Below are positions 8,946-26,265 of a stretch of DNA of 64,000 nucleotides, in pieces. Position numbers and translations under genes: made by a program. The notes under the pieces are model-generated. The model did not search any database. It was not told the DNA's origin and saw nothing but the letters and a program-made list of their open reading frames with translations. The stretch lies in IMG/VR virus record IMGVR_UViG_3300023311_000098, positions 134 through 64,133 of that record. One strand, given 5' to 3'. Source of the stretch: a virus. How positions within the stretch are numbered: the first letter of the stretch is position 1; each line of letters opens with the position of its first letter.

Positions 8946-9416
8946 ATGACAAATAAGATCGTTCCAGAAAAAAAGTGTTGTAAGTGTGGAGAAATAAAAC
9001 CATTTTCCGAGTTCCACAAAAACAGTAGAAACAAAGATGGAAAATGTCCTCGGTGTAAAACTTGCATTCGAGGACAAAATTCAGCAAGAAATAAGTATAT
9101 TTGGCAGAAGAAAAAGAGTGACCCGGACTTTGAAAGAAAGCGTAGAGACTATGTATTAAATTATAATTATGGAATATCCCTAGAGTTTTATGAAATCATG
9201 TTAAGAGATCAAAATGGAATATGTGCAATATGCGGAGCAAAAACAGCATACCCATATTTTATGAAACAAAAGAATTTTTTTGTTGACCACGACCACAAAA
9301 CCGGAAAAGTGCGCGGTCTTTTATGTTACAACTGTAACAAACTTTTGGGAATGGTAAAAGACGATACGGAGTTGTTGGAAAAGCATATAAAGTATTTAAT
9401 AGATACAAAAAGTTAA
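8946..9416 (+). CDS. endonuclease VII-type HNH endonuclease
   Basis: CxxC zinc finger, CAICG, VDHDHKTGKVRGLLCYNCN; opposite strand to its neighbours. Confidence 0.93.
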   Translation: MTNKIVPEKKCCKCGEIKPFSEFHKNSRNKDGKCPRCKTCIRGQNSARNKYIWQKKKSDPDFERKRRDYVLNYNYGISLEFYEIMLRDQNGICAICGAKTAYPYFMKQKNFFVDHDHKTGKVRGLLCYNCNKLLGMVKDDTELLEKHIKYLIDTKS

Positions 9417-10987
9417 TCCTTAGATTTCCCCCATGCTCCAACCTTTGCTTCTTCCTCTTTTTTTTGTTCTGGATTTTTCTGGCCTAAATGAGCAAACCGA
9501 ATACTGCTCCATTTACGAATAGGTGCAATAGACAAACGGGCCCCGGTGGTCGCGGTTATCCGGTCGTCATGGGTATCCTTAGCGGGGAAGGTGTCCAATT
9601 CGCCAAAAAAATTATCCGTCCATTTTCCACGAACCACCCACCAATGTCCTTGCGCCGCCTCCGCGAACCAGTGGTTAGCCGCTTCTACTCTATCTCCATC
9701 CTTCTTGGGGTCGTGCGCTCTCACGGTAAACCCAAATGGCTTTAAGAAATTGGCAATAGCGGCCACTTGGTTCTTACCGCCCGAGGCGGGTTCCTGCTCG
9801 ATATAGATGGGTACTTGTTGTCCATCTACCATGGCGGTATTTCTGATGTTTTCAAGAATTTGATCCCACAACCAATGTCCTCCGGTTTGATCTTCGATGC
9901 AAAAGTTTTCCTTCTTATCGTCATAGGAAACCAAACCACCTATTGTTTCGTCGGGGTCAGTACCAACTTTCTTCTCGGAAGCGGCGAGGTCATAATATCG
10001 AATCCGCCCTCTCCATTCGGGAGCCTTTTCTAAGATGTGCGATACTCCAGTAGTTGGATTGTGGGTAAACCATGTCCTATCACCAAGAGAACCTTCTTCG
10101 TTGGCTGCGATTCCCTCGATCTCGCGCTGTCTCAAATAACCAGACGGGAAGGATGATACCAGTGTAGCGTAAAAGATGGGGTCAAGGTTCTTGCGGTTCT
10201 CTTCCAGGGAAACGTGAAAAGACTCGATTAACTCGCGCCCCTGCATATCGGGGATGTCTTTCAGGAGGTCATAGACTTCTTGAGGAATCTCTTTCCGGTC
10301 GAATAAAGCGGCTATCCAAGAGTCTCTTCCGGCCGGAGTAGTGGTTAAGAACCGTTGGGTATTGGACCCAACGCGTACACCCGCGATAGCGTTCTTCCAG
10401 GCCAGTCCAGTTCTATCTCTACGGGCTTCGTCATACCATAACCAGTTTACGTTATGTCCACGGCCAGACTCGGGGTCACGAAGTCCACGACAATAAAGAA
10501 CGGCTCCATTTATGAAAACGATTGAAAATGGTCTGGTTACATCCCAAGACTCTGACCTTCTGACTCTGTGTTTTGGAATTACCATCTGCCAGGGTATCCA
10601 GCTTCGGAGTTCTGGCCAGGTAGAAGTCTTGAAGTTCTCCAGGTCTGGATTGACGACTATCCCTGTTCTACCTTCACGAATCTTACGAAGCGCTTTCTGT
10701 GCGCCGGCAGAAGTTTTTCCAGATCCTCTACCCCCTTGCATGGCTACAAAAACTCCGGGTGCATTTATGAAACTTAACTGTTCCCCCGCCGGGTCATAGG
10801 GCTTTCCCGCTCCATTTCTGCGAAAGAAGCCATTCTCATCAATATTCCATTTATCTGACCAGGCTATGTTGGCTTTGTCTACTTTAGGTATATCGAGATT
10901 CCTTGCCCTCATCTCTGTAAGTAGGGCAAGTAACTGTCTCTTATCCTTATCACTCAGATCTGTTCGAATCGTCTTGTTCGCTTGCAT
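9413..10987 (-). CDS. terL: terminase large subunit
   Basis: Walker A GGRGSGKT, Walker B WLWYDEA, motif TTTP, nuclease YDLAAS...HDDRI. Confidence 0.96.
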   Translation of the reverse strand: MQANKTIRTDLSDKDKRQLLALLTEMRARNLDIPKVDKANIAWSDKWNIDENGFFRRNGAGKPYDPAGEQLSFINAPGVFVAMQGGRGSGKTSAGAQKALRKIREGRTGIVVNPDLENFKTSTWPELRSWIPWQMVIPKHRVRRSESWDVTRPFSIVFINGAVLYCRGLRDPESGRGHNVNWLWYDEARRDRTGLAWKNAIAGVRVGSNTQRFLTTTPAGRDSWIAALFDRKEIPQEVYDLLKDIPDMQGRELIESFHVSLEENRKNLDPIFYATLVSSFPSGYLRQREIEGIAANEEGSLGDRTWFTHNPTTGVSHILEKAPEWRGRIRYYDLAASEKKVGTDPDETIGGLVSYDDKKENFCIEDQTGGHWLWDQILENIRNTAMVDGQQVPIYIEQEPASGGKNQVAAIANFLKPFGFTVRAHDPKKDGDRVEAANHWFAEAAQGHWWVVRGKWTDNFFGELDTFPAKDTHDDRITATTGARLSIAPIRKWSSIRFAHLGQKNPEQKKEEEAKVGAWGKSKD

Positions 10988-12987: not shown

Positions 12988-13172
12988 TTCGGCACTTTAG
13001 GCAACTTTGCCCAATGACTTATCTCTATCATAGGATATTCATTCCTCTCCCATATCCCCACCCATGTACTTACGGATACATACTTCCTACTCCTGTCTTT
13101 TTTAGAAGCATAACAGACAAGATACTCCCCATTCTCTTTAGGACTTCGACTTATCGGATTCCATTTGGTCAT
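12984..13172 (-). CDS. DUF551-like small protein
   Basis: KWNPI...P...EYLV...ISHWAKLP; SD GGAGAAGGA. Confidence 0.8.
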   Translation of the reverse strand: MTKWNPISRSPKENGEYLVCYASKKDRSRKYVSVSTWVGIWERNEYPMIEISHWAKLPKVPK

Positions 13173-13327: not shown

Positions 13328-13927
13328 GTTCTCTATTATACCCCAATTTGTTCGCATAGCAGGGGGATTTTGTGGAATTCGAGAACCGTAATTTCTGAGC
13401 ACGGTGCTGTGTTTCATCCGCCGCCAGCGTTGCCCAATTCTGGCTTGGGTTGTGTGTGCTGGATGCTGGATGGTGGATGGTGGATGGATGTAGCCAGGTC
13501 CTATGATATGCGCCCATGATGGATCGCTGGGTTATACGCTCTACTTACCGGGTATTCATAATTCATATTCGGAATATTGAATGTGACGTATGTCGTAATA
13601 ATCCAGTCAAATGTGACTATGTGCTCCCGGTCAAAAAGTCGTATCGTTAAAGGGTAGGAGGCAATAAATAAAGAGCTTCTTACACCGAAGCGGGCAAGGG
13701 GGGCAACGGGCAACGGAGAAACCGGGGAGGCTGGGTAGGAGGATGACCAACCACCGGGGCAACCGTCCAGGCGCTAGGCAACGACACGACCAACTGGATA
13801 ACGTATTACTCCCGGTTGGCGGGGCTGTGTACGGCTATAGTACGTGTATAGGCAGGGTAGGGCATGGGTGTGATGAGCGCCCTAGGGAGGTCCGATACTT
13901 GGATGGGTACACGTCTAGCATGAACAG

Positions 13928-14004
13928 CTATTGAACTCGAAACCCAGAGTGACGGAAGATCACCCTCTGGGTAGTATGGTAGTGGCCATACCTGATGAGA
14001 GTAG
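13928..14004 (+). ncRNA. hammerhead ribozyme, type II
   Basis: CTC-GAAA-CCCAGAG..CTCTGGG-TA-GTATGG..CCATAC-CTGATGA-GAG; all core residues and three stems present. Confidence 0.9.
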
Positions 14005-14018
14005 AGAGAGGTACAACA

Positions 14019-14201
14019 ATGATAAAGCTGGAGATTACTACCAAATGGCATCACGACGTTATCCAGGAAACATGCAAGACAATGGCGTCGTCCATTAGAG
14101 CGGCTACATCCGCCCATCCAATTGGATTACATATCACGCTTGACAGGGGTACTGACAAAGAGCGAGGGTATTGTCAAGTGACAAGCATCAAGGTACTGTA
14201 A
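14019..14201 (+). CDS. first early gene, hypothetical
   Basis: SD GAGAGG then ATG 14019. Confidence 0.65.
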   Translation: MIKLEITTKWHHDVIQETCKTMASSIRAATSAHPIGLHITLDRGTDKERGYCQVTSIKVL

Positions 14202-14206
14202 AGTAA

Positions 14207-14277
14207 GGGGAGGCTTGACGGCCTCCCCTCCAAACCAGACAGCACTACAATTCGGTAGTACTGTGTGTTATGGAGGC
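14207..14277 (+). promoter_or_regulatory. repeated structured leader, copy 1
   Basis: GGGGAGGC/GCCTCCCC hairpin, then CACTACAATTCGGTA hairpin, then GGAGG. Confidence 0.6.
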
Positions 14278-14284
14278 AGTAAAG

Positions 14285-14491
14285 ATGGAAGCAACGATTG
14301 AGTTTAGATCCCTTGGTGGTAAGTATAAACGAAAGATTATTGTCAAGCAATCCCACATTAATAACGGGTATGCTATTGACACCACGATAAAGACAGGGGC
14401 ATGGTATACACTTCGCCACCTAGAAGGCTTTCATACATTATCGGAAGCGCTTCTAAGTGCAGCGGAAACCGTCAAGGAATTACAATCATAG
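14285..14491 (+). CDS. hypothetical early protein
   Basis: GGAGG SD, ATG 14285. Confidence 0.7.
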   Translation: MEATIEFRSLGGKYKRKIIVKQSHINNGYAIDTTIKTGAWYTLRHLEGFHTLSEALLSAAETVKELQS

Positions 14492-14653
14492 CATCCCGGA
14501 GGCGGCTGATACCGCCTCTCTGATAGACTGGCAAGCGCAACGCGAGTAGAGCATAAGTCTACCATGTAGCCGCTCAATACCTCCCATAAGCCGCTTACCA
14601 GTCTATCAGACCCCATAACGCGGTTGTGGGGCAAGTAGAATGAGAGGATACCA

Positions 14654-14842
14654 ATGAACAAAAACCTAGTCGGTAAAGTATACAAGTTGGCGAATGGCAA
14701 TAAATGGGGCGAGGTTATAAGCCAGGTTGACTTGACTGCCGAAGTCAAGGTCCGTCTATCAGACGGGGCCGTTACAACTTTCGGTTATTACGAGGTTGTA
14801 TCATGGATCAAGGACGGGGTATTAATCGAGGTAACCCAATGA
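14654..14842 (+). CDS. hypothetical early protein
   Basis: GAGGA SD; 62 aa. Confidence 0.7.
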   Translation: MNKNLVGKVYKLANGNKWGEVISQVDLTAEVKVRLSDGAVTTFGYYEVVSWIKDGVLIEVTQ

Positions 14843-14991
14843 CCACACACCAGATAGTAACCACAGCCAAGATATACCGCAAGCTGGAACGCGAGTACAG
14901 ACTAGCCGGAGATCAGGTTAATGCGGATAAAGCCGCGGCTATGTACCGCAAGCTACAACGAGAACTTAAGCAGCGGCTAAACGAGGACTAA
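14839..14991 (+). CDS. hypothetical early protein
   Basis: ATGA coupling; helical 50 aa. Confidence 0.6.
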   Translation: MTTHQIVTTAKIYRKLEREYRLAGDQVNADKAAAMYRKLQRELKQRLNED

Positions 14992-14994
14992 GGC

Positions 14995-15017
14995 TTATTG
15001 ATAACGATTATCAATAA
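14995..15017. promoter_or_regulatory. palindromic operator resembling a Fur box
   Basis: TTATTGATAA-CGA-TTATCAATAA; core TGATAAC-G-ATTATCA. Confidence 0.55.
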
Positions 15018-15095
15018 CGTTCATATTCTGAATTCTGATAGGAGGCGCGATATGCGCGGGATACACAAAGCCCGCTAAAATCTAATCTGTAGAAT

Positions 15096-15163
15096 GGGGA
15101 GGCGTGGACCTCCCCCCTCTTATAGAGCACACTACAATTCGGTAATGTGCTCTAATCGGAGGC
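15096..15163 (+). promoter_or_regulatory. repeated structured leader, copy 2
   Basis: same architecture and identical 15-mer as 14207..14277. Confidence 0.6.
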
Positions 15164-15167
15164 TAAA

Positions 15168-15365
15168 ATGTACACTGTCTTTACTCGCAATTGGTGGAAG
15201 TCTAACTCAGCATGGCCCGGAGGACGTGAGCCGGGAGCGGGGCGGAAGTATACGCTATACCGCAATCTCCGCACAGAAGAAGAAGCGCGGCGGATATGCA
15301 AGCAATACAACGCAACACACAAACCAGGTAAGTTAAGCCATAAAGCAGAATACGACGAACAGTAA
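15168..15365 (+). CDS. hypothetical early protein
   Basis: GGAGG SD; 65 aa. Confidence 0.75.
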   Translation: MYTVFTRNWWKSNSAWPGGREPGAGRKYTLYRNLRTEEEARRICKQYNATHKPGKLSHKAEYDEQ

Positions 15366-15471
15366 ATGACGGCCTATAACTACGGATATTGTCCGGGCAT
15401 CCGTCGCCAGTAAGATGATTTTACTGGCGGTTAATGCCCTAGCAATTCACCAGGACAAGAGGATAAAGATA

Positions 15472-15705
15472 ATGAATACATTTGATTGTTTCATGGCAGG
15501 GTATCACGGGAGAACGTCAGAAGAGCCGCCCTATGCCTCTTCGATTAATGGCATGGCATATCAAGCGGGAAAGTGGTGTAGGGAATATAAAGTAGTGGCG
15601 CAAGAGATTAAACCATCCCGCGGCTATAAGATGATTGTCAACCGGACCTATGTACTTGACTTCAAACGGGATTCTTACAGCCCGGATGTAACCAGAGTAC
15701 ATTAA
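15472..15705 (+). CDS. hypothetical early protein
   Basis: GAGGA SD; start trimmed to MNTFDC. Confidence 0.65.
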   Translation: MNTFDCFMAGYHGRTSEEPPYASSINGMAYQAGKWCREYKVVAQEIKPSRGYKMIVNRTYVLDFKRDSYSPDVTRVH

Positions 15706-21636: not shown

Positions 21637-21858
21637 ATGGCAAACGTGAGATTACAGGTTATTGTACCAGAAGAACTTGGAAAACAACTCGAGGCAGAGG
21701 CGTTGTCTCATAATGCCACCCTGTCTTGGGTTATCCGAAATATCCTGATGGGATATGTCAGGAATAAACCCATTCGCATCCCGTCCATTCCGTTCACTGG
21801 CCGCGGGGATGAGATAGGCGAAGGCTTCGGAGAACACGGCGAAAGCGAGGAGGCATAA
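21637..21858 (+). CDS. ribbon-helix-helix transcriptional regulator
   Basis: VRLQVIVPEEL...LE..A.....TLSWVIR..L. Confidence 0.75.
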   Translation: MANVRLQVIVPEELGKQLEAEALSHNATLSWVIRNILMGYVRNKPIRIPSIPFTGRGDEIGEGFGEHGESEEA

Positions 21859-26036: not shown

Positions 26037-26118
26037 TCATCCAACCTATCACACAGACGACGCGCAGGAAGATATGCACCCTTGTACAAAATAAGAAAGT
26101 TGTGATAATATTGATAAC

Positions 26119-26228
26119 GCTGAGAGACACCATGCAGAACGCGAATTTTCCTTTTCAAAAACCCGCATTTAATCTTACCGACTCGCGTCGGTGTCTCTCA
26201 GCAGAGCCAAGATTGAGTGCGGGATTTT
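26119..26228 (+). promoter_or_regulatory. attenuator-like leader of the replication gene
   Basis: two interleaved, mutually exclusive inverted repeats (13 bp and 15 bp). Confidence 0.65.
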
Positions 26229-26265
26229 GCATCGTGAGAGTACGCTACAATTCGGAGATTCGGTT

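What the first reader, a model, noticed from the sequence alone, without database searches (positions are those of the whole stretch)
14207..15167. Repeated leader element with invariant CACTACAATTCGGTA apex and covarying stems
Seen: two copies (14207-14277, 15096-15163) of a GGGGAGG/CCTCCCC hairpin, then a long stem capped by an identical 15-mer, then the GGAGG SD. The stems differ in sequence but keep pairing (ACAGCACTAC/GTAGTACTGT versus AGAGCACACTAC/GTAATGTGCTCT). The CCTCC strand can alternatively pair with the SD. A partial CTACAATTCGG at 26245-26255 overlaps the initiator SD. Inference: a protein-binding translational switch or processing site; alternatively a DNA hairpin promoter, since it contains TACAAT.
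Basis: partly seen in the sequence, partly recalled or inferred. Interest (0 to 1): 0.7.

Follow-up and report, generated by a model that had tools for sequence, protein, structure and literature searches.

The report
Repeated promoter-hairpin cassette in phage
Two copies of a roughly 80-base control module sit in front of two small early genes of an uncultured 64-kb pond phage; each has two hairpins, a probable promoter core at the tip of the second hairpin, and a ribosome-binding site, so it is a real but fairly ordinary variant of phage early-gene cassettes.

Summary
Two copies (14207-14277, 15096-15163, + strand) share a GGGGAGG/CCTCCCC hairpin, an identical 15-mer and a GGAGGC Shine-Dalgarno. 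The spacer between them is at random-level identity. The long stems align in register over 13 positions with 4 compensatory double changes. A third site (26237-26255) is 17/19 identical to the 5' arm plus loop of copy 2.

No homologue was found. The closest relative (terminase 94%) lacks the element but shares two other covarying leader hairpins.

My best reading (about 0.42) is a PeSL-like composite cassette. The invariant 15-mer would be positions -15 to -1 of a -10-type promoter (TACAAT), and the first variable base, a purine in both copies, would be +1. The octamer TAYAATTC is enriched in intergenic gaps (7 of 13). On read-through RNA the same DNA folds into two hairpins that hide the Shine-Dalgarno (P unpaired about 0.2).

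Rivals are a pure RNA operator or processing site (0.28), minus-strand small RNAs whose apex pairs over 19 bp with the start region of a replication-like gene (0.12), and DNA-level sites (0.08).

No RNA data exist. This scan has noted PeSL-like promoter/hairpin cassettes in other phages before, but not this sequence.

The parts
14199..14201 (+). Stop codon (TAA) of the upstream 60-aa ORF 14019-14201, 5 nt before hairpin 1 of copy 1
   Evidence: read from the sequence
14207..14228 (+). Copy 1, hairpin 1: GGGGAGGC / GCCTCCCC arms; both arms are invariant between the copies
14236..14267 (+). Copy 1, second palindrome: 13 in-register stem positions around the 6-nt loop AATTCG, with one C.A and one G.G mismatch
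14243..14257 (+). Copy 1, invariant 15-mer. It contains TACAAT (14246-14251), read as -15 to -1 of a -10-type promoter with inferred +1 at G14258
   Evidence: the +1 is inference
14272..14277 (+). Copy 1, Shine-Dalgarno GGAGGC of the 68-aa gene (ATG 14285); predicted mostly paired on read-through RNA
15053..15079 (+). 8-codon mini-ORF with a strong Shine-Dalgarno, ending 17 nt before copy 2. It sits where the relative L104 has a real gene start
   Evidence: read from the sequence
15096..15115 (+). Copy 2, hairpin 1: GGGGAGG / CCTCCCC
15123..15154 (+). Copy 2, second palindrome: 13 stem positions with one C.A mismatch
   Evidence: (I11)
15130..15144 (+). Copy 2, invariant 15-mer with TACAAT at 15133-15138; inferred +1 at A15145
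15158..15163 (+). Copy 2, Shine-Dalgarno GGAGGC of the 65-aa gene (ATG 15168)
26237..26255 (+). Third, half-size site: 17/19 identical to the 5' arm plus loop of copy 2, with no 3' arm. It ends in the first two bases of the GGAG Shine-Dalgarno, 8 nt before ATG 26266 of a 373-aa replication-like ORF

Best explanation
Each copy is a composite intergenic control cassette of the phage early region. The closest published layout is the PeSL (promoter-early stem-loop) cassette of T4-type phages.

At the DNA level (inferred), the invariant 15-mer is the -15 to -1 part of a -10-type host promoter: CAC-TACAAT-TCGGTA, followed by a purine at +1 (G14258, A15145). A transcript started there has a 27- or 23-nt unstructured leader with a free GGAGGC Shine-Dalgarno for the small gene behind it.

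At the RNA level, the fold is computed and its function is inferred. A transcript that reads through from upstream carries the whole cassette. It folds into the G-tract/C-tract hairpin just after the upstream stop codon and into the long hairpin, whose base helix (CCUCC with GGAGG) hides the Shine-Dalgarno. Read-through RNA would therefore be poorly translated, attenuated or processed at this point.

On this reading the stems covary because the RNA hairpin matters, and the apex is invariant because RNA polymerase reads it as DNA.
For: 1. The conserved block has promoter geometry. It runs from 3 nt before TACAAT to 6 nt after it. The first non-conserved base is a purine in both copies, exactly 7 nt after the hexamer. 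A hairpin operator does not predict this asymmetry of 6 nt of the 5' arm, the loop, and only 3 nt of the 3' arm.

2. TACAAT lies 33 and 29 nt before the ATGs with the Shine-Dalgarno in between. Two clear TATAAT sites of this phage lie 24 and 37 nt before their genes.

3. TAYAATTC occurs 13 times on both strands, and 7 of those are in the 11.9% of the window that is intergenic (binomial p 3e-4). Leaving out the three sites at issue, it is 4 of 10 (p 0.023). TAYAAT as a whole is 20 of 76 in gaps (p 4e-4).

4. Most other candidate promoters of this phage also lack a good -35, and several follow a hairpin directly. The missing -35 is therefore not disqualifying here.

5. The relative L104 has TTGAAT-16 nt-TACAAT at the head of its early operon.

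6. RNA side. Folds are -36.1 kcal/mol with z -3.9 and -5.3. There are 4 compensatory changes in 13 stem pairs. Mean P(unpaired) of the Shine-Dalgarno is 0.20 and 0.17, against 0.72 and 0.60 at two other leaders.

7. PeSLs are described as running from the stop codon in an AT-rich stretch, through a sigma-70-like promoter and a stem-loop often made of polyG then polyC that may overlap the -10 or -35 box, to the Shine-Dalgarno and ATG (PMC2839356, section 14, read in full).

8. Homology with L104 starts at the ATG of the 68-aa gene, and the leaders are swapped between genes, as expected of modular cassettes.

9. A second, unrelated leader hairpin (15388-15446) shows the same geometry. It has a -10-like TAAGAT at the stem/loop junction, a conserved apex, and 4 compensatory changes between the window and L104.
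Against: - There are no RNA data at all, so every functional step is inferred.
- There is no -35 (CTCCCC sits at that position) and no TG extension. The consensus scanner lists no promoter at either copy.
- AT-rich hairpin tips resemble -10 boxes fairly easily.
- The gap enrichment partly rests on the sites in question.
- All 7 in-gap TAYAATTC sites are on the + strand, three of them in regions whose genes are on the - strand. That is odd for a plain promoter motif.
- At the third site the same core would give only an 8-nt leader without a Shine-Dalgarno.
- Hairpin 1 has no U-tract on the + strand, so a terminator role is doubtful.
- Related hairpin 1 copies in the 'type 2' leaders (14498-14519; L104) are not followed by a -10 in the window.
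- Each long stem has a C.A mismatch on the + strand, and the - strand folds better.
- There are only 2 copies, whereas the PeSL paper describes its regions as densely populated by such motifs.
- Template-switch mutation in quasi-palindromes could create 'compensatory' changes without selection.
Confidence: 0.42

Rival explanations
1. This is a pure RNA element on the + strand: a structured leader or intercistronic signal with no promoter. The apex 15-mer binds a phage or host protein, or the roughly two-turn irregular hairpin is cut by RNase III. That frees or blocks the Shine-Dalgarno held by the CCUCC tract. The GGGGAGG arm of hairpin 1 acts as an anti-anti-Shine-Dalgarno.
For: - Stable folds and a masked Shine-Dalgarno, and covarying stems.
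- Two other leaders of the same operon (14492-14653 and 15388-15446) are conserved with covariation in L104, so structured RNA leaders are a theme here.
- The 3' arm of hairpin 1 matches the type of Shine-Dalgarno behind it in 4 of 4 leaders: CCUCC with GGAGG, and CCUCU(C) with (G)AGAGG. This was read.
- Hairpin 1 starts 5-7 nt after the upstream stop codon in 3 of 4 leaders.
- The invariance of hairpin 1 (7 of 7 pairs) is explained if it must mimic the Shine-Dalgarno.
- The third site lies in a translation start region.
Against: - No homologue keeps the fold. The flanked pattern gave 0 hits in genome contigs and metagenome contigs. All 20 exact 15-mer hits in IMG/VR lie in unrelated contexts.
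- No Rfam family matches.
- No RNA-binding protein was identified; there is only a weak CvfB_WH hit, E 0.0011.
- The asymmetric conserved block and the purine right after it are unexplained.
- Each stem has a C.A mismatch on this strand.
- The base helix that hides the Shine-Dalgarno is only 4-5 bp.
Confidence: 0.28
2. The functional RNAs come from the - strand. They would be two paralogous small RNAs, each a long hairpin followed by the GC hairpin as terminator. Each is antisense in cis to the start region of the gene it overlaps. Through the shared apex, each also acts in trans on the start region of the 373-aa replication-like gene.
For: - The - strand folds better: -38.2 and -41.1 kcal/mol, z -5.6 and -6.8.
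- Both C.A mismatches become G.U pairs on that strand.
- The - strand RNA of copy 2 can form 19 contiguous pairs with 26237-26255 (-33.2 kcal/mol). Copy 1 gives -24.0 kcal/mol.
- Both differences between the third site and copy 2 are transitions that keep pairing as G.U.
- The paired stretch covers -29 to -11 of the target, including the start of its Shine-Dalgarno.
- The tail after the GC hairpin is more U-rich on the - strand (UUACUUU in copy 1).
Against: - There is no sigma-70-like promoter on the - strand for copy 2 and only a modest one for copy 1 (TTGCTT-17-TATACT, 8/12).
- The tail of copy 2 (AUUCUAC) is a poor terminator.
- No in-gap TAYAATTC lies on the - strand.
- Cis-antisense pairing needs no conservation between copies, so only the trans target would explain the 15-mer.
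- The last two conserved bases do not pair with the target.
- The wobble evidence is two events only, and it is mixed in the other leaders (read).
Confidence: 0.12
3. This is a DNA-level site that works as a hairpin, a cruciform or a protein-binding palindrome. Options are a supercoil-dependent hairpin promoter, an operator for a dimeric regulator (CACTAC-N6-GTAGTG), a recombination site with a 6-bp asymmetric core, or part of a replication origin bound by the replication-like protein.
For: - The centre is invariant and the 6-bp spacer is asymmetric.
- The two copies are directly repeated 887 bp apart.
- A third, single-arm site lies next to the replication-like gene.
- Hairpin 1 is a perfect 7-bp inverted repeat whose arms never vary while its loop does. 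Relative to the inferred +1 it is centred near -40, the place of a class II activator site (geometry recalled).
- An unrelated IMG/VR phage (L143) has a hairpin 1 look-alike followed by an operator-like 18-bp palindrome and a Shine-Dalgarno.
Against: - The outer arms differ between the copies but stay complementary within each copy (6 of 7 and 7 of 7 positions). A protein that reads half-sites does not require that.
- Recombination between the copies would make non-palindromic hybrids.
- No ORF of the size of an N4-type polymerase was seen in the ORF list, where the largest is 820 aa, and no recombinase or HUH nuclease came up in the family scans of 21 proteins. Only 21 proteins were scanned, so this is weak.
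Confidence: 0.08

Closest known systems
PeSL (promoter-early stem-loop) cassettes of T4-type phages (Arbiol et al. 2010, PMC2839356: passages and section 14 read; Comeau et al. 2014, PMC4122927: abstract and outline read)
   Same: [quoted passage not shown] Both have a stem-loop made of a G-tract then a C-tract, a -10 box that a stem-loop may overlap, and a Shine-Dalgarno at the 3' end. Both sit in front of small orphan early genes, and the leaders are exchanged between close relatives with the breakpoint at the ATG.
   Different: There is no -35 box and no clear AT-rich UP region. There are two hairpins instead of one and only 2 copies (plus a half site), where the PeSL paper describes dense arrays. 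The host and phage type are unknown and not T4-like. Neither promoter nor terminator activity has been shown.
RNase III processing signals between early genes of phage T7/T3, for example R1.1
   Same: Both are irregular hairpins of roughly two helical turns between cistrons of a long early transcript, with sequence blocks shared among sites of one phage. In both, cutting can free a masked ribosome-binding site.
   Different: In T7 the shared sequence lies around the internal loop and cleavage site, not at the tip. Here the stem is 13 bp plus a 4-5 bp base helix. No cleavage data exist.
Lambda nutL/nutR boxB and HK022 putL/putR antitermination RNAs (recalled)
   Same: Both are two copies per phage of a leader RNA hairpin (put: two hairpins, about 70 nt) with an identical recognition part, downstream of early promoters.
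   Different: boxB is a 5-bp stem with a pentaloop next to boxA. The two copies here are in tandem on one strand, and no N-like protein or boxA was identified. No Rfam family reached its gathering score here; the best match over the cassettes had E 2.1.
Phage N4 early hairpin promoters (recalled)
   Same: In both, a promoter element is presented at a hairpin-forming inverted repeat and no -35 is used.
   Different: N4 needs its roughly 3,500-aa virion RNA polymerase, and its stems are 5-7 bp with 3-nt loops. This phage has no ORF above 820 aa, and its stems are 13 bp with a 6-nt loop.
Antisense control of replication or immunity genes: plasmid R1 CopA, phage P1 c4, P4 CI (recalled)
   Same: In both, a hairpin RNA has an exposed part that pairs with the ribosome-binding region of a replication or regulatory gene. 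Here the potential pairing is 19 bp at the 26266 gene.
   Different: Those RNAs have mapped promoters or processing sites. Here the - strand has no convincing promoter for copy 2, and expression is unknown.

Membership tests
PeSL cassette | [quoted passage not shown] | tested here: met
   Copy 1 runs from the stop at 14199-14201 to ATG 14285. Copy 2 runs from the mini-ORF stop at 15077-15079 to ATG 15168.
PeSL cassette | Stable stem-loop, often a G-tract then a C-tract, that may overlap the -35 or -10 box | tested here: met
   The GGGGAGG/CCTCCCC hairpin sits at the -35 position, and a second hairpin has TACAAT at its tip.
PeSL cassette | Sigma-70-type -10 box at a working distance from the start codon | tested here: inconclusive
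   TACAAT lies 33 and 29 nt before the ATG with a purine 7 nt downstream, and TAYAATTC is enriched in gaps. This is sequence evidence only.
PeSL cassette | Sigma-70-type -35 box 16-18 bp upstream of the -10 | tested here: not met
   CTCCCC sits at that place in both copies, and the scanner finds no -35/-10 pair there.
PeSL cassette | Many copies per genome, clustered among orphan early genes | tested here: not met
   The covariance model finds only the 2 copies in the window. There is one further half site.
PeSL cassette | Recombination points that swap genes between close relatives | tested here: inconclusive
   Homology with L104 begins at ATG 14285, and a different leader precedes the same gene there. 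This rests on a single relative.
PeSL cassette | Measured promoter and terminator activity | not testable with these tools
   No RNA run is listed for this DNA.
RNase III processing signal (T7 type) | Irregular double-stranded stem of about two helical turns between cistrons | tested here: inconclusive
   The stem is 13 bp plus a 4-5 bp base helix with internal loops, about 17-18 bp in all.
RNase III processing signal (T7 type) | Cleavage by RNase III | not testable with these tools
   No RNA ends are available.
N4-type hairpin promoter | Phage-encoded giant virion RNA polymerase | tested here: not met
   The largest ORF is 820 aa.
N4-type hairpin promoter | Stem of 5-7 bp with a 3-nt loop | tested here: not met
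   The stems have 13 positions and the loop is 6 nt.
Trans- or cis-antisense small RNA | Own promoter on the strand of the RNA | tested here: not met
   Copy 2 has none scoring 8/12 or more. Copy 1 has one 8/12 candidate.
Trans- or cis-antisense small RNA | Extended complementarity to a translation start region | tested here: met
   There are 19 contiguous pairs with 26237-26255, at -33.2 kcal/mol.
Any Rfam family | Score at or above the family's gathering threshold | tested here: not met
   Only a tRNA is found in the window. Nothing over the cassettes has an E-value below 2.1; the one lower match in that scan (mcrA, E 0.62) lies at 15373-15388, outside them.

The most novel reading that the evidence does not exclude
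Two unrelated leader families of this phage place a -10-like hexamer at the stem/loop junction of a hairpin that evolution keeps paired. Type 1 has TACAAT and was compared between its two copies. Type 3, at 15388-15446, has TAAGAT and was compared with L104. In both, the first three bases of the hexamer are in the stem, the last three are in the loop, and there is no -35. This could be a class of hairpin-apex promoters for the host polymerase. Extrusion or single-strand presentation of the -10 would replace the -35 contact, which is N4-like logic without an N4 polymerase. Alternatively it could be a device that yields two messages from one site: an open one from the cassette's own promoter and a masked one from read-through.
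Probability: 0.12. Interest if true: 0.7.

Novelty: new variant of a known kind. Interest (0 to 1): 0.4.

Why it matters
If the composite reading holds, it shows how a phage can make one short stretch do two jobs. RNA polymerase reads the tip of the palindrome as a promoter. The arms fold on read-through RNA and hide the ribosome-binding site. The same gene would then be translated from its own transcript but not from the long early transcript.

It would also extend PeSL-like mobile control cassettes to an uncultured phage lineage that is far from T4. The best terminase match among deposited phages is 31% identical, over 42% of the protein.

The third site offers a testable link between these cassettes and expression of the replication-like gene.

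If the reading is wrong, the element is still a clean two-copy case of a covarying hairpin with an invariant tip. That makes it a good substrate for 5' end mapping and reporter work once the host is known.

Tried and rejected
**Homologue searches that led nowhere**
- The exact 15-mer in IMG/VR gave 20 hits, all in unrelated contexts by their printed flanks.
- The 15-mer flanked by CCTCC and GGAGG gave 0 hits in genome contigs and 0 in metagenome contigs.
- blastn of 13900-15500 against deposited phages gave no match.
- Relatives of the 68-aa gene in IMG/VR: none with the single protein, and only the L104 record with the two-sequence alignment.
- Relatives of the 373-aa ORF in IMG/VR: none.
- Terminase relatives in genome contigs were two short MAG contigs at 40-46% identity and gave no host clue.
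- Of 4 terminase relatives in IMG/VR, only L104 reaches the early region.

**Is the leader tied to the 65-aa gene family? No**
- 468 metagenome stretches encode a relative, and the best 80 were fetched.
- None of the 80 upstream regions shows the element by eye.
- The covariance model gave 0 of 80 matches in front of the gene, and one weak hit elsewhere (L033, E 0.054).

**Hairpin 1 plus GGAGG as a pattern**
- There are 112 IMG/VR stretches, of which 80 were listed and read. They are mostly generic terminator hairpins, and none has the 15-mer.
- The model matched 7 of 80 at E <= 0.01. This is by construction through hairpin 1 and the Shine-Dalgarno.

**A trans-acting hammerhead whose arms match the repeats**
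The only CUGAUGA core in non-coding DNA is a cis-type arrangement at 13935-14002, and its arms do not match the 15-mer.
- No Rfam family reached E 10 as a hammerhead there, and the Hammerhead_II model found nothing in the record.

**Other readings rejected**
- A peptide reading of the 15-mer fails, because the two copies are read in different frames from the near-cognate starts in hairpin 1 (by eye).
- A trans antisense RNA complementary to the tip, elsewhere in the genome, was not found. 8-mer complements occur only inside coding regions.

**Sequencing runs**
- No RNA holder is listed.
- Contigs of 4 DNA runs were laid on the region. Three are identical over the region. The fourth covers only short, diverged pieces that do not span either cassette; one piece stops at 15097, two bases into copy 2. 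No natural variants of the element were seen.

**Tools and files**
The 27 contigs that carry the identical 65-aa protein could therefore not be fetched.
- Supplementary files were not consulted. Supplementary fig. S1 of PMC2839356 holds the PeSL promoter and terminator assays and may bear on the comparison.
Full report
**What the DNA is**

The window is nearly the whole of a 64,133-bp IMG/VR virus record with direct terminal repeats. The same DNA is held by pond and viral metagenome runs of four studies, and a fifth study holds only a small share; no RNA run is listed. The best terminase match among deposited phages is 31% identical, over 42% of the protein; matches covering at least 80% are 24% or less, so the host is unknown.

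Minus-strand genes, including the terminase at 9413-10987, end near 13172. A run of small plus-strand genes starts at 14019 and goes on to about 30790. The finding lies in the first 1.2 kb of this plus-strand early block.

**The observation**

Both copies are as described.
- Hairpin 1 lies at 14207-14228 and 15096-15115. Its pattern occurs twice in the window against 0.02 expected.
- The 15-mer CACTACAATTCGGTA is exact at 14243-14257 and 15130-15144 and nowhere else in the record.
- CCTCCCC and the 15-mer are in register in both copies, while the 14 bases between them are 4/14 identical.
- Aligned without gaps, the second palindromes have 13 stem positions. Six never vary, four changed on both sides, and three have one unpaired cell: C.A in each copy and G.G in copy 1. 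All seven pairs of hairpin 1 never vary.
- With two sequences the shuffle control bottoms out near 1/16 (35 of 500). Sliding the partner by 1-3 columns gives 0-1 double changes.
- Each copy folds far better than shuffles on either strand. The minus strand is more stable because the two C.A mismatches become G.U.

**A third site**

The partial match noted at 26245-26255 extends to 26237-26255. It shares 17 of 19 bases with the 5' arm plus loop of copy 2 (three sites with at most 3 mismatches against 0.02 expected). It has no 3' arm. It ends in the first two bases of a GGAG Shine-Dalgarno, 8 nt before ATG 26266.

The 373-aa product has no Pfam or PHROG hit. Its protein-atlas look-alikes are named replication or DnaD proteins at score 0.96. 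This is a lead, not proof.

**Relatives**

No homologue of the element was found in IMG/VR, in the metagenome collection or in one-per-species genomes. No Rfam family matches.

The 65-aa gene behind copy 2 belongs to a widespread family: 25 protein clusters and 468 metagenome stretches. None of the 80 fetched relatives has the element in front of the gene. The leader therefore belongs to the phage, not to the gene.

The one relative that reaches the early region is L104, in record G001, with 94% terminase identity. It is syntenic but has no copy of the element.
- In L104 the homologue of the 68-aa gene follows a different leader. That leader is the counterpart of window 14492-14653: a GGAGGC hairpin, a long CUGAU..AUCAG stem, and a hairpin whose 5' arm again reads CACACTAC. 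Homology between the two phages starts at the ATG.
- A third leader hairpin (window 15388-15446) is also shared with L104. All 15 pairs are kept, 4 changed on both sides, and the tip is conserved.

Structured leaders that are exchanged between genes are thus a feature of this early block.

**Reading the 15-mer as a promoter core**

The block is CAC-TACAAT-TCGGTA. The next base, the first that differs between the copies, is G or A. That is what -15 to -1 and a purine +1 of a -10-type promoter look like.
- The hexamer lies 33 and 29 nt before the ATGs, with the Shine-Dalgarno in between.
- In this genome TAYAAT is enriched in intergenic gaps: 20 of 76, where gaps make up 11.9% of the window (p 4e-4).
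- The octamer TAYAATTC is more enriched still: 7 of 13 (p 3e-4). Without the three sites at issue it is 4 of 10 (p 0.023).
- Most other candidate promoters, with a perfect TATAAT, also lack a good -35, and several follow a hairpin directly.
- L104 has TTGAAT-16-TACAAT at the head of its early operon.
- The layout matches the published PeSL cassettes: stop codon, G/C-tract stem-loop, a -10 overlapped by a stem-loop, Shine-Dalgarno, ATG. In PeSLs the stem-loop may overlap the -10 or the -35 box, and the cassettes mediate gene shuffling (PMC2839356, section 14 read in full; PMC4122927, abstract).

A transcript started at the inferred +1 would lack the 5' arm and so have a free Shine-Dalgarno. A read-through transcript would fold and hide it: mean P(unpaired) is 0.20 and 0.17, against 0.72 and 0.60 at two other leaders. 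This two-message idea is inference.

**What speaks against it**

- There is no -35 and no TG, and the scanner finds nothing at either copy.
- AT-rich hairpin tips look like -10 boxes fairly easily.
- All in-gap TAYAATTC sites are on the plus strand, even where the genes are on the minus strand.
- The third site would give an 8-nt leader without a Shine-Dalgarno.
- Hairpin 1 has no U-tract on the plus strand.
- There are only two copies.
- No RNA data exist.

**Rivals**

*(a) A pure RNA operator or processing site.* This explains the masked Shine-Dalgarno. It also explains the never-varying Shine-Dalgarno-like hairpin 1, its position 5-7 nt after the stop codon in 3 of 4 leaders, and the match between the 3' arm and the type of Shine-Dalgarno in 4 of 4 leaders. 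It does not explain the asymmetric conserved block, and it has no candidate factor.

*(b) Minus-strand small RNAs.* Support comes from the better folds, the G.U pairs, and a 19-bp contiguous duplex between the copy 2 minus-strand hairpin and the start region of the 26266 gene (-33.2 kcal/mol). No minus-strand promoter is seen for copy 2, and its tail is a poor terminator.

*(c) DNA-level sites (cruciform promoter, operator, recombination site, origin).* The outer arms differ between the copies yet pair within each copy, which half-site recognition does not require. No N4-type polymerase is present. No recombinase was seen among the 21 proteins scanned.

Template-switch mutation in quasi-palindromes could also create apparent compensation without selection (recalled).

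**Comparison and novelty**

The element works most like a PeSL cassette. It fails two defining features, the -35 box and the copy number, so I do not file it as a member. It is a new variant of a known kind.

Earlier notes of this scan describe PeSL-like cassettes in other phages, some with a promoter inside the hairpin. I did not test those. They make this layout less surprising.

**Verdict**

The mechanism is open between a composite promoter-plus-hairpin cassette (0.42), a pure RNA element (0.28), minus-strand RNAs (0.12) and DNA-level sites (0.08), with the rest unassigned. Interest is 0.4.

Noticed in passing
window 13935-14002 (+): A hand-read hammerhead-like core lies just upstream of the first early ORF. 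It reads ACUC-GAAA, then a closed 8-bp stem (13942-13949 with 13965-13972), then A, then a closed 6-bp stem (13974-13979 with 13986-13991), then CUGAUGA-GAGU. Stem II is open, as in a type II layout. No Rfam model recognises it. A contig of another run shares 13971-14003 and then diverges.
   Followed up: partly
window 14492-14653 (+); L104 6630-6513 (-): A 'type 2' leader is conserved between the two phages. It has a GGAGGC hairpin right after the stop codon, a long CUGAU..AUCAG stem of different sequence and length in each phage, a 9-bp hairpin, then CAAGUAGA and the Shine-Dalgarno. In L104 it precedes the gene that follows copy 1 in the window.
   Followed up: partly
window 15388-15446 (+); L104 5607-5551 (-): A 'type 3' leader hairpin keeps all 15 pairs in both phages, with 4 changed on both sides. 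Its conserved tip GTAAGATGA holds a -10-like TAAGAT at the stem/loop junction and an ATG.
   Followed up: partly
window 13562-13586 and 15021-15039; L104 about 6924-6900 and 6096-6078 (-): An operator-like near-palindrome TTCAYATTCKGAAT.. occurs at the head of the early block and again just before copy 2, and at the matching places in L104. It is a candidate repressor site. The only DNA-binding candidate seen is a weak ribbon-helix-helix hit, below Pfam's cut-off, at 21637-21855.
   Followed up: no
window 7865, 24324, 31037, 43342 (+): The octamer TAYAATTC is found in intergenic gaps only on the + strand. Three of these sites are in regions whose genes are on the - strand. Two of them follow a hairpin directly (24324 and 31037). 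They may drive small RNAs or antisense transcripts.
   Followed up: no
window 15053-15079 (+): An 8-codon mini-ORF (MRGIHKAR) with a strong Shine-Dalgarno sits where L104 has a real gene start. It may be a recombination remnant or a leader peptide ahead of copy 2.
   Followed up: no
window 26100-26235 (+); G001 15050-14919: A structured stretch of about 130 nt ahead of the 373-aa replication-like ORF is conserved in G001 (74%). There, however, a different gene follows it, and no homologue of the ORF was found in G001:1-39904.
   Followed up: partly
window 15168-15365 (+): The 65-aa protein has invariant positions F5, R7, W9, W10, N13, E21, P22, H51, P53 and G54. It belongs to a widespread family with no Pfam or PHROG model: 25 clusters and at least 468 metagenome stretches.
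   Followed up: partly
L143 2432-2502 (-): An unrelated IMG/VR phage has the same GGGGAGGC/GCCTCCCC hairpin, followed by a perfect 18-bp palindrome and then GGAGGC and ATG. The general layout therefore recurs with a different second palindrome.
   Followed up: no
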